Program-made: the position numbers
Shown: one piece after another, positions 24,001 through 27,000 of the stretch
Numbering within the stretch: the first letter of the stretch is position 1
How the letters are laid out: the number at the start of each line of letters is the position of its first letter
DNA from: Podarcis vaucheri
Taxonomy: Eukaryota
Reading direction: 5' to 3' (one strand)
Length of the DNA stretch: 64,000 nt
Assembly: GCA_965113315.1 (NCBI GenBank)
Contig: OZ220365.1

Positions 24001-27000
24001 AAGGAAATGCCCCCCCCCCAAGCTAACATGCTATTGATTAAATGACGTAGAACACCTCTGCATCAATAGTGAATTCATAGTTGTACCAGAAATGTAACTG
24101 CTAACTACCAAAAAATGAAGGCCAGTTGCATTGCAAAAAATCTACCTAAAGCATCTTGACGCAAATGCCCTTGTAGGAGTGGCAGAAGAGTTTAGCAAAG
24201 TGTGACTAATGATAACGGCTTTTGAAAAGAAAAAGATTATGTGTGGGGAAGATGAAGTTTTTTGCAGCATATTTCAACTAATGAGTGGGATAGCTGAGGC
24301 ACTAATGCTTTTTATATACTGGTTAAGGAATCTTAATGGTAGTTTGACAGCATCTGATCAGTTTGTATAGCAAAAGGGGGATTATGGCTGCATTGGTATG
24401 GACACTTACCTGGGAGTAAGTTCCACTGAACTTCTCTATAACCATGCTTAAGTTTGCAGTTAAGAATAGGGAAAAAACCGGGACTTCCGGGTTGGCGCCA
24501 TCGCCGAATGGCGGACTCCCTCCGAGCTCCGGAGGGAGTCTGCTCGGCAGGGGCTGGGTCCTACCGCGCCGGCGACGCGGGGACCCTTAGAAACCACGGG
24601 AATGGATCCCGTGGACATGGTGACTCGGCTGGCACCGTTATCGCTCTCCCGGCTTGTGAAAGAGCCTTTTTAAAGGCTACGGATCGGGCGCCGGGGAGTA
24701 GCGTGGTGCTTTGAGTCCTCCGCTTCCCCTGCCGGGCGCAGCCGCATGCCATTCGGCGGAGAGCGCTGGCTTCTTCCAAAGGAAATTCGGACAATTGATC
24801 AACAACCCGTGAGTAATTGGGCAACCGGGTTTAAAAGGAGGAAAAAAGAAAAATTTTTCCGGATTTGGCACGAGCGGGAGGGGATCCAAAAAAGGAAGTC
24901 AGTCCCCTCCCTGATTGTAAACATGCTAAAACAAGGACTGAGAAACCAAGATCTATTCAGAAGCTTATTGATGATAAAAATTACCAACTCCACGATGTGA
25001 ATTATAAGAACTGTGCTGGAGGAGAGGAGTCGAGGGTGAGGAAAAAGCAACCCCCCCCTGGGAACCGGGGCGATTCGGACAGCCTGGCGAAGAGAGATGG
25101 AGATTTTGACAGCTGTCAAAGGAGCTGTCAAAACTGGAAATTATAAAGAGGACTTTGCTACAAGTTCTTTGCTGGTTAATTTTGTTACAATTTGATATAA
25201 ATATGGATATAAACTGTCGGGAAAAAGAAACAACAAATTGACTTTTGGATTAGAGGATACAAAGTTATTGTAATCCCTCTAGAGGGGATTCGGGACATTA
25301 CAAGTGTCGTATGTGGAAAACTACTCTGGGATGTGTAAAGGTCTTATCTCCTGGGAAAGCTGCAGAACTGAAATATTATTTTGTCTACAGAGGTGACTAT
25401 AACACAATAGAATCTTCCATTGAAGCAAGAAAGGAACTGGACGTAAGTCTGTGTCCCTGAATAACAAACCTCTGTAGAGACGTTAAATTTTGGAACAAGA
25501 ATGTTTTGACAGCTGAACAAGACAGAAACCTGAGAAACCAAGAAATAAAAGAGTAGATGACTGAATACGACACGGAAAGAATAATGGGAGGAGCAACAAA
25601 AGATTAAAGAAAATTAAAGGCCTCTATTAGATTGGATTTTCGACGTTAAACATCATTAAGACAATCAAATCCGAAGAAAACAGCATGATGGACTGAGATA
25701 AATTTGGCTGTGGACTTAAGATCTCCAGGCCGACAACATACAGACAAATGGACATGGGGAATCAAAACCGGGGAAGGGAGGGGGAACCTTAGAATCCAAA
25801 GGCTTTGTAACCAACTTTTTGAATTTCTCTATACTTTCTATCTTATATTCTTTATAACTTTGATACTTTACGTTTCTGTTTTTTCTTTTTTTTTTAGAAA
25901 GGGGGAACTCGTGGAAGAAATGAGAGCGGATCTTGGGGAAAATTTTGTTCTATTATAAGACGAGGAGTGATGCTAAGATGGTGTAAATTTAAATTGGTTT
26001 ATGAGTATAATATATTAGGTTTAATTGGGGATGAGAACTTGTGGAACCAACTTGGATAAAGGGGAATACAATCGGGAGGGGAAGGAGGAAGTCCCAGAAA
26101 GAAGGTTATGAAAAGAAGGGTCTAAGTTAGTTTCTCTTTTTCTTTCTTTCCTTTATCTTTCTTATTTTCCTATTCTGTTATTATTGGAAATTTTAATAAA
26201 TATGATTAAAAAAAAAAAAGAATAGGGAAAAAACCTGCACCCCTAATTTTAGGGGCTGTGTTGGTATGGCCATGTTGTTGGACTCCCAACTCCCATTAGC
26301 TCCAGCCAGCATAGCCAGTGTTCAGGGATGATAGGAGCTGAAGTTCAACAACATTTGGAAGGACACACCTTAGCAATCCCTCCCTTATTTGAAAGGCTTA
26401 GTGGCATTTGAAAGTCAAAAAATGTAAGGAAGAATGATTTTTTATTTTTTGGAATAGCAAGAGTATCTGTCAGTTGCAGAGATGTTGTATGAACATTAAA
26501 AGCCCAAGTAATTTCAACCAAAATAGAAACATAGTCCAGGAATATAAGGCCAATGAACAGCCACTTTGGCTCATGGAAGGGGTTTGGGCAGCCCACCATT
26601 TTTTTCCTTTCCTTTTAAACCTGACGCCATCTCCATGCAACTATGCTGTATCATGAATTCTTTCCACAACATCTATAAGTTTCAAAAATACTTTTGCCAC
26701 ACAGCATAGGATTCTGCTTATGGTTATAAAACCCCCACAGGCCTTTGGATTCTGGCCTAATGTAGAACATGGTTGTAGGTTTCCAGAGGAACAATGTAAT
26801 ATAATGGGTTCAGATGGGACCCAAAAGGAACATCCCAAGAAAATATTGCAAAGATTATTTGGCAAGGTTCAGCAGCCCAGAAAAAAAGGAAGCAGCAGCA
26901 AATAGATGCAAAATGAACAAAGCAGCACTCAATCCTAGGTGCAGTTGAATATCTGAAAGGAAGCAATGAGAGCACTCACCTTACCAAACCTCGTTGGTGC

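What the first reader, a model, noticed from the sequence alone, without database searches (positions are those of the whole stretch)
24462..26235. Young, complete but ORF-less 1.74-kb L1-type retroposon antisense to CDC42BPA
Seen: a perfect 18-bp TSD, TT/AAGA target, AATAAA plus poly(A), and an undecayed CpG-rich 5' end, all pointing to recent insertion. Yet no frame is open for more than about 110 codons, and no EN or RT motif is visible. Established: these hallmarks indicate L1 target-primed reverse transcription. Inference: coding decay preceded insertion, so this is a copy of a long non-autonomous Pol II-driven family moved in trans by lizard L1. It is too long for a SINE, lacks a tRNA head, and lacks the intact ORF1 of HAL1. 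It may be an undescribed family.
Basis: partly seen in the sequence, partly recalled or inferred. Interest (0 to 1): 0.72.

Follow-up and report, generated by a model that had tools for sequence, protein, structure and literature searches.

The report
ORF-less L1-derived retroposon in lizard intron
A 1.7-kb retrotransposed insert in an intron of a lizard kinase gene begins and ends like a lizard L1 jumping gene but carries no protein genes, so it is most likely a stripped-down L1 copied by the proteins of intact L1s.

Summary
A perfect 18-bp target-site duplication (24462-24479 / 26218-26235) brackets a 1,738-bp insert with a TT/AAGA target, AATAAA, a short poly(A) tail and a CpG-rich 5' end. 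It has no ORF over 113 codons and no Pfam hit. It lies antisense in a 16-kb intron of lacertid CDC42BPA (MRCK alpha).

New here: the insert starts GG-GACTTCCGG-N17-ATGGCG. That matches the conserved 5' terminus published for long-5'UTR Anolis L1s (GACTTCCGGTG-N8-ATGGCG) and for zebrafish L1s (GGACTTCCGGTT). A 1.3-kb part at 46% GC followed by a 0.4-kb T-tract-rich part at 32% GC fits the published lizard L1 5'UTR and 3'UTR sizes and compositions.

Best reading (confidence 0.6): an L1 with both ORFs missing, lost by deletion or splicing, transcribed from the L1 promoter and inserted in trans. "Coding decay" is not supported, because no coding remnant was detected.

Whether it is a propagating family could not be tested; no lizard genome was searchable. 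One hint exists: a 68-aa ORF starting at the ATGGCG has a 78%-identical, same-length relative on an unnamed 1,745-bp public contig.

The main rival is a retrocopy of a host Pol II transcript. Interest is moderate.

The parts
24460..24461 (+). TT immediately 5' of the duplicated target; with the first bases of the TSD it gives TT/AAGA, a one-off variant of the L1 endonuclease site TT/AAAA
   Evidence: the consensus site is recalled knowledge
24462..24479 (+). 5' copy of the 18-bp target-site duplication
24480..26217 (+). the retroposed insert (1,728 bp body plus 10-A tail)
24480..24513 (+). L1-type 5' terminus: GG, GACTTCCGG, 17 bases, ATGGCG
   Evidence: Matches the published consensus of Anolis clade-1 L1 and of zebrafish L1 (PMC5381506). 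One match in the window and 0 in 100 shuffles.
24480..24879 (+). CpG island (38 CpG, observed/expected 1.06, GC 0.60); presumed internal Pol II promoter
   Evidence: Promoter function is inferred.
24511..24543 (+). 14-bp stem / 5-nt loop hairpin just after the ATGGCG
   Evidence: I4. The first 121 nt fold at -72 kcal/mol, z -3.9.
24508..24714 (+). 68-codon ORF that starts at the ATGGCG of the consensus; probably not coding
   Evidence: P0121 is 78% identical with the same length. The 15 differences look neutral.
24480..25799 (+). 5'UTR-like part: about 1,320 bp, GC 0.46, A-rich, no low-complexity tracts; the 3' boundary is approximate
   Evidence: Anolis clade-1 5'UTR is 792-1,465 bp at GC 39.5-49.7%.
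25800..26207 (+). 3'UTR-like part: about 406 bp, GC 0.32, with T-rich tracts (25800-25897, 26131-26182) and a purine-rich tract (about 26040-26110)
   Evidence: Anolis clade-1 3'UTR is 194-570 bp at GC 22.5-40.2%, with T-rich or polypyrimidine tracts.
26195..26200 (+). AATAAA polyadenylation signal
26208..26217 (+). poly(A) tail (10 A; 12 if the first two A of the TSD are counted)
26218..26235 (+). 3' copy of the target-site duplication
23366..23449 (-). MRCK alpha exon (aa 968-995 of P0010) downstream of the host intron
39427..39510 (-). MRCK alpha exon (aa 943-970 of P0010) upstream of the host intron

Best explanation
The insert is an L1-derived retroposon with no ORFs. It has a lizard L1 5' end (promoter-bearing 5'UTR, about 1.3 kb) joined directly to an L1-like 3' end (about 0.4 kb with T-rich tracts, AATAAA and poly(A)).

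The roughly 4.8 kb that would encode ORF1 and ORF2 is absent. It was lost either by internal deletion of a source copy or by splicing of an L1 RNA.

The RNA starts at the normal L1 start site, is made by Pol II and is polyadenylated. It encodes nothing, so it was reverse transcribed at a TT/AAGA nick by ORF2 protein supplied in trans by an intact L1. That produced the 18-bp duplication.

**Shown:** the retroposition hallmarks, the L1 5'-terminal consensus, the lack of coding capacity, and the two-part composition.

**Inferred:** L1 ancestry of everything beyond the first 34 bases, promoter activity, trans mobilisation, and recency.

**Open:** whether this is one product or a member of a self-propagating family.
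For: 1. TPRT hallmarks are present. The 18-bp TSD is unique in the window, with 0.02 expected. There is a TT/AAGA target, AATAAA and a poly(A) tail.
2. The insert begins GG-GACTTCCGG-N17-ATGGCG.
   - Boissinot & Sookdeo 2016 (PMC5381506, section 9 read) give GACTTCCGGTG-N8-ATGGCG as the 'remarkably conserved' 5' extremity of Anolis clade-1 (long-5'UTR) L1s.
   - They give GGACTTCCGGTT as the start of zebrafish L1s.
   - The gapped pattern matches once in the window and 0 times in 100 shuffles.
   - The exact 9-mer occurs once in 64 kb, 2 bases from the insert's first base.
3. The anatomy lies within published Anolis clade-1 ranges (table 2).
   - 5' part: about 1,320 bp at GC 46% (published 1,268 +/- 198 bp at 45.2%).
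   - 3' part: about 406 bp at GC 32% (published 345 +/- 118 bp at 33.1%).
   - CpG count: 61 (published average 56 for the 5'UTR).
   - Low-complexity T-rich arrays occur only in the 3' part. The paper describes such tracts for lizard 3'UTRs and says lizard 5'UTRs lack them.
4. The sense strand is A-rich and C-poor: A 37%, C 16% over 24780-25779.
5. There is no coding remnant in 30 of 30 plus-strand and 18 of 21 minus-strand open stretches scanned.
6. A relative of the 5' ORF (P0121, 78% identity, same start and stop) sits on a 1,745-bp contig, close to the insert's 1,738 bp. This hints at a discrete unit of this size elsewhere.
Against: - No lacertid or Anolis L1 sequence could be aligned. 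L1 ancestry therefore rests on a 15-base consensus plus size and composition ranges that are wide and come from Anolis, not a lacertid.
- The spacer between the two consensus blocks is 17 bases rather than 10.
- GACTTCCGG (ETS-type site) and ATGGCGG (YY1-type site) are also common at the starts of host housekeeping transcripts (recalled knowledge). With one mismatch allowed, the 9-mer is not enriched in the window: 2 found, 3.6 expected.
- The paper describes two CpG islands 300-400 bp apart in Anolis 5'UTRs. Here there is one 400-bp island and only a weak second cluster at 25031-25088.
- The 5'/3' boundary is set by composition only.
- No L1 RT or EN fragment is present anywhere in the window to show a partner.
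- No second copy lies in the window.
- The contig-length coincidence rests on a single record that could not be read.
Confidence: 0.6

Rival explanations
1. Processed retrocopy of a host Pol II transcript. This would be a lncRNA, or an mRNA with only a small ORF, whose CpG-island start happens to carry ETS and YY1 sites. It would have been copied once by L1.
For: - All hallmarks (TSD, poly(A), AATAAA) fit a processed pseudogene equally well.
- The CpG-rich 400 bp followed by an AT-rich body resembles a first exon plus a long 3'UTR.
- There is no other copy in the window.
- P0121 on a 1,745-bp contig could be the parent transcript or its orthologue.
- ETS and YY1 motifs are common at housekeeping starts (recalled).
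Against: - The transcript would have to start exactly 2 bases before GACTTCCGG, as L1s do.
- Neither the 68-aa ORF nor the 108-aa ORF matches any annotated protein. The database does hold the annotated proteomes of Podarcis and Zootoca.
- The A-rich, C-poor strand bias and the paired T-rich tracts before the AATAAA are L1-like.
- A lncRNA parent could not be searched for.
Confidence: 0.2
2. Prematurely polyadenylated L1 transcript. The RNA would be only a long L1 5'UTR (perhaps with the start of ORF1) that ended at an internal AATAAA and was then retrotransposed in trans.
For: - The 5' terminus is L1-like.
- Lizard L1s carry many internal poly(A) signals (passage).
- The insert itself has an internal AATAAA at 25544 and ATTAAA at 25603 and 25613.
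Against: - At 1,728 bp it exceeds the longest Anolis clade-1 5'UTR (1,465 bp).
- The last 400 bp have the low GC and T-rich repeats described for 3'UTRs and said to be absent from lizard 5'UTRs.
- No ORF1-like frame is present.
Confidence: 0.08
3. This is a once-coding element whose ORFs decayed before this copy was made, belonging to a long non-autonomous family with no L1 ancestry.
For: - The insert has no ORFs and looks fresh.
- A diverged relative exists elsewhere.
Against: - 1.7 kb cannot hold decayed L1 ORFs (about 1.07 + 3.76 kb).
- 0 of 48 open stretches scanned shows any domain.
- The 5' terminus is L1's own.
Confidence: 0.07

Closest known systems
Full-length long-5'UTR ('clade 1') L1 of Anolis carolinensis (L1_AC1-15)
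   Same: - 5'-terminal consensus GACTTCCGG...ATGGCG.
- CpG-rich 5'UTR of about 1.3 kb at about 45% GC.
- AT-rich 3'UTR with T-rich tracts, AATAAA and poly(A).
- A-rich sense strand.
   Different: - No ORF1 and no ORF2: 1.7 kb against 6.2-6.7 kb.
- Spacer of 17 rather than 10 bases in the terminal motif.
- The host is a lacertid.
- No sequence alignment was possible.
SIDEs (short internally deleted elements of non-LTR retrotransposons: R2 SIDEs, Persaeus/Zenon CR1, RIME/ingi)
   Same: A non-autonomous derivative that keeps the 5' (promoter) and 3' ends of a LINE and lacks the coding middle. It has no Pol III head (PMC6740152 passages).
   Different: - Known SIDEs are from insects and trypanosomes and from R2, CR1 and ingi-type LINEs, whose 3' ends are recognised by their RT.
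- This one would derive from L1, which needs only a poly(A) tail.
- Homology of both ends to a partner, and multiple copies, are not shown here.
Human SpIREs (spliced integrated retrotransposed L1 elements)
   Same: An L1 RNA that lost internal sequence before retrotransposition, and carries a full 5' start and TPRT hallmarks (PMC5860796 abstract).
   Different: - Described SpIREs are intra-5'UTR or 5'UTR/ORF1 splices that keep ORF2.
- They lose promoter elements and are judged dead ends.
- Here both ORFs are gone, and the junction cannot be placed on donor or acceptor sites.
HAL1 and SVA (L1-dependent non-autonomous elements of mammals)
   Same: Pol II-type, longer than SINEs, and moved in trans by L1 (recalled; SVA also in the listing).
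   Different: - HAL1 keeps an ORF1; none is present here.
- SVA is a composite with a VNTR; here there are only short T-rich low-complexity arrays.
Processed pseudogene
   Same: Poly(A), TSD, and no introns evident.
   Different: - It starts exactly at the L1 terminal consensus.
- No annotated parent protein was found.

Membership tests
L1-mediated (TPRT) retroposition product | Target-site duplication of about 7-20 bp flanking the insert | tested here: met
   18/18 bp. It is the only such repeat in the window, with 0.02 expected.
L1-mediated (TPRT) retroposition product | Nick site resembling TT/AAAA | tested here: met
   TT/AAGA. The consensus is recalled.
L1-mediated (TPRT) retroposition product | 3' poly(A) tail after a polyadenylation signal | tested here: met
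   AATAAA at 26195-26200; A10-12 at 26208-26219.
Autonomous L1 | ORF1 (L1 ORF1p/Transposase_22) and ORF2 with endonuclease and reverse transcriptase | tested here: not met
   0 of 30 plus-strand and 0 of 18 minus-strand open stretches reach any Pfam cut-off. The longest ORFs are 108 and 113 aa.
Lizard L1 (clade 1), 5' end | 5' extremity GACTTCCGGTG-N8-ATGGCG | tested here: met
   GACTTCCGG exact and ATGGCG exact, with a spacer of 17 instead of TG+8, at bases 3-34 of the insert. This counts as met with a spacing variant.
Lizard L1 (clade 1), 5' end | Alignable 5'UTR over most of its length; two CpG islands 300-400 bp apart | tested here: inconclusive
   No L1 sequence was available to align. 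There is one clear island (24480-24879) and a weak cluster at 25031-25088.
Lizard L1, 3' end | Homology to a host L1 3'UTR | not testable with these tools
   Only generic features could be checked: length 406 bp, GC 32%, T-rich tracts, AATAAA. All are within published ranges.
SIDE (internally deleted non-LTR derivative family) | Multiple copies sharing the same deletion, each with its own TSD | not testable with these tools
   No lizard genome collection was available and there is no second copy in the window. The one hint is P0121 on a 1,745-bp contig.
SpIRE | Internal junction coincides with L1 splice donor and acceptor | not testable with these tools
   This needs the full-length source L1.
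SINE | Pol III head from tRNA, 7SL or 5S; length under about 600 bp | tested here: not met
   ARAGORN found 0 genes. No Rfam family lies within the insert at E up to 1 except chance-level miRNA or leader hits in the last 150 bp, far below their gathering scores. The insert is 1,738 bp.
HAL1 | Intact or recognisable ORF1 | tested here: not met
SVA-like composite | Internal VNTR and SINE-derived modules | tested here: not met
   TRF finds only T-rich low-complexity arrays of 21-41 bp.
Processed pseudogene of a protein-coding gene | Similarity to a host protein or mRNA | tested here: not met
   - 108-aa ORF: 0 hits among 3 candidates.
- 68/77-aa ORF: only P0121, an unnamed 68-aa record. No annotated lizard protein matched, although lacertid proteomes are in the database.
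- A non-coding parent could not be tested.

The most novel reading that the evidence does not exclude
Lacertid lizards harbour a currently active, self-transcribing L1 'mini-element' family. Its members keep only the L1 promoter/5'UTR and 3'UTR, encode nothing, and multiply by taking ORF2p from intact L1s despite cis-preference. This would be a vertebrate, L1-derived counterpart of the insect and trypanosome SIDEs. Subfamilies would already be about 10% diverged, as the 78%-identical ORF on a unit-length (1,745-bp) contig would suggest.
Probability: 0.3. Interest if true: 0.6.

Novelty: new member of a known kind. Interest (0 to 1): 0.4.

Why it matters
If this is only a single stripped L1 copy, it is an ordinary by-product of L1 activity. 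It would matter mainly as a marker that L1 retrotransposition, including trans mobilisation, has been recent in this lacertid.

If it is a family, it would show that an L1 can spawn a Pol II-driven parasite of itself in a vertebrate that has many low-copy L1 lineages. That bears on how strict cis-preference is outside mammals. It also bears on why internally deleted LINE derivatives are so rare compared with MITEs.

The insert also places a CpG island with a probable promoter about 1 kb from an exon of CDC42BPA, in antisense orientation. It could therefore drive antisense transcription through that exon.

Tried and rejected
- **Second copy in the window.** Self-BLASTN of the insert against the window gave no second copy and no related L1 end. 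The best off-diagonal hits were 14-36 bp at chance level.
- **Rfam.** Nothing real was found. The hits were weak miRNA or leader hits in the last 150 bp and in the flank, all far below their gathering scores.
- **Pfam on whole reading frames.** I scanned the separate open stretches instead and found nothing.
- **Pfam over the whole window.** Among 59 window ORFs of 90 aa or more, only the three MRCK domains (CNH, PH_MRCK, KELK) passed their cut-offs. No RT or EN was found, so there is no partner L1 to compare.
- **Protein search with the 108-aa ORF.** 0 hits.
- **Representative search with the 77-aa frame.** There were 9 hits at E up to 0.001.
  - One is P0121.
  - The other 8 are 703-2,228-aa proteins matched in 5-13 repeated stretches.
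  - I read two of them (P0122, P0123) and took them for repetitive proteins matched through low-complexity G/A/S/T-rich sequence.
  - The other six were not inspected.
- **Cluster members of P0121.** The organism and the rest of the contig remain unknown, and the contig could not be read.
- **Coding status of the 68-aa ORF.** I considered it as a real micro-protein or ORF0-like gene. Of its 15 differences from P0121, 14 are reachable by one base change and several are radical (C/G, H/L, I/S, C/R). Only open copies enter a protein database, so conservation of the frame is not evidence of coding.
- **Splice-like sites.** GTGAGT at about 24809, GTAAGT at about 25443 and a polypyrimidine-AG at about 25870-25897 were noted, but they cannot locate a past splice junction.
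- **Bacterial scan.** The sigma-70 promoter and terminator scan has no bearing on a lizard sequence and was disregarded.
- **Literature.** Searches found no description of an ORF-less L1 derivative in lizards. This holds only for the open-access library searched.
- **Left out.** The bacterial genome-contig collection and the phage, plasmid and E. coli collections were not searched, being irrelevant to a lizard repeat.
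Full report
**The observation**

- AAGAATAGGGAAAAAACC occurs at 24462-24479 and again at 26218-26235.
- It is the only exact 18-mer repeated directly at 300-8000 bp spacing in the 64-kb window. 100 composition-preserving block shuffles gave a mean of 0.02 such repeats.
- The 5' copy is preceded by TT, so the inferred nick site is TT/AAGA. That is one base off the L1 endonuclease consensus TT/AAAA (the consensus is recalled knowledge).
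- The insert is 24480-26217. AATAAA lies at 26195-26200, followed by seven bases and an A-run at 26208-26219. The last two A can be counted with the duplication, so the tail is 10-12 A.
- Of the 10 A-runs of 9 or more in the window, this is the only one with both a poly(A) signal and an 18-bp duplication.
- The window holds no N.

**CpG content**

- The first 400 bp hold 38 CpG, with observed/expected 1.06 at GC 0.60.
- The rest of the insert has observed/expected 0.52.
- The 5-kb flanks have 0.18 and 0.30, and the whole window 0.23.
- This, with the intact duplication, fits a recent insertion. Both are weak clocks, though. Eighteen compared positions say little, and an unmethylated island would keep its CpGs.

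**Coding capacity**

- The longest stop-to-stop frames are 108 aa on the plus strand and 113 aa on the minus strand.
- All 30 plus-strand open stretches of 20 aa or more were scanned against Pfam.
- 18 of the 21 minus-strand ORFs of 40 aa or more were also scanned. The three omitted lie mostly in the flanks.
- None reached a curated cut-off. The best was DNAG_N at 14.9 bits against a cut-off of 26.
- There is no tRNA-like head, no Rfam family and no VNTR, only T-rich low-complexity arrays.
- The element is therefore not an autonomous L1, a HAL1, a SINE or an SVA-like composite.

**Genomic context**

- The ORF at 17256-17891 (minus strand) is a CNH domain.
- It is 100% identical to MRCK alpha (CDC42BPA) of Podarcis muralis, P. 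raffonei and Zootoca vivipara. It is 96-99% identical to other squamates (3,837 hits among 4,181 candidates, best 120 listed).
- A tblastn of the stored P. muralis protein P0010 against the window gave 25 exon matches, all on the minus strand.
- I read these exon by exon and built no joined coding model.
- The insert lies in the roughly 16-kb intron between the exons at 39427-39510 and 23366-23449. It is about 1 kb from the latter and in antisense orientation.

**What the insert is: the 5' terminus**

The decisive lead came from the literature. Boissinot & Sookdeo 2016 (PMC5381506; I read passages, sections 7 and 9, and part 1 of section 8) report two relevant consensuses.
- The long-5'UTR ('clade 1') L1 families of Anolis share a 'remarkably conserved' 5' extremity, GACTTCCGGTG-N8-ATGGCG.
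- Zebrafish L1s start GGACTTCCGGTT.

The insert starts GG-GACTTCCGG-GTTGGCGCCATCGCCGA-ATGGCG.
- Both blocks are exact. The spacer is 17 bases instead of 10.
- The gapped pattern occurs once in the window and in none of 100 shuffles.
- The exact 9-mer occurs once in 64 kb, beginning at the third base of the insert.
- With one mismatch allowed the 9-mer is not enriched: 2 found, 3.6 expected.
- The weight therefore lies in the exact match at the exact 5' end, not in the motif's frequency.

**What the insert is: the rest of the anatomy**

The rest fits the same paper's table 2 for Anolis clade-1 L1s.

| Feature | This insert | Published for Anolis clade 1 |
|---|---|---|
| 5' part length | about 1,320 bp (cut at about 25800) | 1,268 +/- 198 bp (792-1,465) |
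| 5' part GC | 46% | 45.2% |
| 3' part length | about 406 bp | 345 +/- 118 bp (194-570) |
| 3' part GC | 32% | 33.1% |
| CpG count | 61 (whole insert) | about 56 on average (5'UTR) |

- The paper states that lizard 5'UTRs lack low-complexity regions. It also states that lizard 3'UTRs always contain T-rich or polypyrimidine repeats and end in AATAAA plus poly(A).
- In the insert, the only low-complexity arrays are T-rich and lie at 25830-25893 and 26131-26182.
- The sense strand of the middle kilobase is A-rich and C-poor: A 37%, C 16%.
- One point does not fit well. The paper describes two CpG islands 300-400 bp apart. The insert has one island and only a weak second cluster at 25031-25088.

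**Most likely mechanism**

- An L1 RNA or source copy lost the roughly 4.8 kb encoding ORF1 and ORF2, by internal deletion or by splicing.
- It kept the normal L1 start and hence, presumably, the internal Pol II promoter.
- It was polyadenylated at the normal L1 signal.
- It was then inserted at a TT/AAGA nick by ORF2 protein from an intact L1 acting in trans.
- The retroposition hallmarks, the terminal consensus and the absence of coding sequence are shown.
- L1 ancestry of the body, promoter activity and trans mobilisation are inferred.
- I put this reading at 0.6.

**One copy or a family?**

This could not be tested. No lizard genome or repeat library was among the tools, and there is no second copy in the window. 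One outside hint exists.
- The frame 24481-24711 contains a 68-codon ORF that starts at the ATGGCG of the consensus (24508).
- A full HMMER search of 1.84 billion representatives found one 68-aa protein, P0121. It is 78% identical and aligns from first to last residue.
- The word-indexed search found the same single record: source label 'lgn', one member, one contig, contig length 1,745 bp.
- That is within 7 bp of the insert's 1,738 bp. This would be expected if a unit of this size exists as a transcript or as a collapsed repeat elsewhere.
- The 15 differences are mostly single-base, often radical changes. Only copies with an open frame can appear in a protein database. I therefore do not take the ORF for a gene.
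- The other 8 hits are long repetitive proteins. I inspected two of them and dismissed them as low-complexity matches.

**Rivals**

- **Retrocopy of a host Pol II transcript (0.2).**
  - ETS-type and YY1-type sites are common at housekeeping starts (recalled). All the hallmarks fit, and P0121 could be a parent or an orthologue.
  - Against it: the start sits exactly at the L1 terminal motif, and the strand bias and tail are L1-like.
  - Also against it: no annotated lizard protein matched either ORF, although lacertid proteomes are in the database.
  - A lncRNA parent cannot be excluded.
- **Prematurely polyadenylated L1 5'UTR (0.08).** It is disfavoured by the length and by the 3'UTR-like last 400 bp.
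It is disfavoured because 1.7 kb cannot hold decayed ORFs and no remnant is detectable.

**Comparison with what is known**

- The closest categories are internally deleted non-LTR derivatives (SIDEs). A 2019 paper calls them rare and known only from fruit flies, Anopheles, Trypanosoma and Lepidoptera (PMC6740152, passages; an R2 example appeared only in the listing).
- The other close category is human SpIREs. These are spliced L1 RNAs that retrotransposed and are regarded as dead ends (PMC5860796, abstract).
- In Anolis, L1 comprises 20 low-copy families with a high share of full-length copies (PMC5389967, passages).
- My searches found no description of an ORF-less L1 derivative in lizards, within the open-access library only.
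- Dfam and Repbase could not be consulted. The supplementary files of PMC5381506, which may bear on a direct alignment, were closed.
- I file the finding as a new member of a known kind: an L1-derived, internally shortened retrocopy. The family question stays open.

**Verdict**

L1-mediated and ORF-less are right. The element is L1-derived rather than a foreign family. 'Coding decay' is unsupported, and family status is untested.
- Interest is 0.4.
- The boldest reading still allowed is an active L1 mini-element family in lacertids. I give it a probability of about 0.3. It would be of moderate to good interest to transposon biologists.

Noticed in passing
window 26272-26354: Just 3' of the insertion site lies a hairpin-like repeat that scores weakly on both strands against Rfam mir-5408 (28.4 and 25.4 bits against a gathering score of 90). 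It is probably an old squamate interspersed repeat rather than a miRNA gene.
   Followed up: no
window 24386-24404 and 26254-26272: A 19-bp direct repeat (84% identical) sits in the two flanks outside the TSD (D3). The insertion may have landed inside or beside an older repeated sequence.
   Followed up: no
window 24938-24951 and 25530-25543: An exact 14-mer, CTGAGAAACCAAGA, occurs twice within the insert, 592 bp apart. There is no extended similarity around it. It could be chance or a trace of an old internal duplication.
   Followed up: partly
window 24480-24600: The first 121 nt of the insert fold unusually well as RNA (-72 kcal/mol, z -3.9, 0 of 200 shuffles as stable). A 14-bp hairpin lies at 24511-24543, directly after the ATGGCG motif.
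   Followed up: partly
window about 24809, about 25443 and 25870-25897 (+ strand): There are consensus-like splice donors (GTGAGT, GTAAGT) and a long polypyrimidine tract ending in AG inside the insert. These could matter for splicing of the element's own RNA. The effect on the host gene was not examined.
   Followed up: no
window 47521-47667 and 49367-49498 (- strand): Two MRCK alpha exon matches are only 90% and 84% identical to the P. muralis isoform used, and they overlap in protein coordinates (aa 750-793 and 779-827). They are likely alternative exons or isoform differences.
   Followed up: no
window 28600-29000: A GC-rich stretch (GC 0.48-0.55) lies inside the same intron, 2.4 kb from the insert. 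Its nature was not examined.
   Followed up: no
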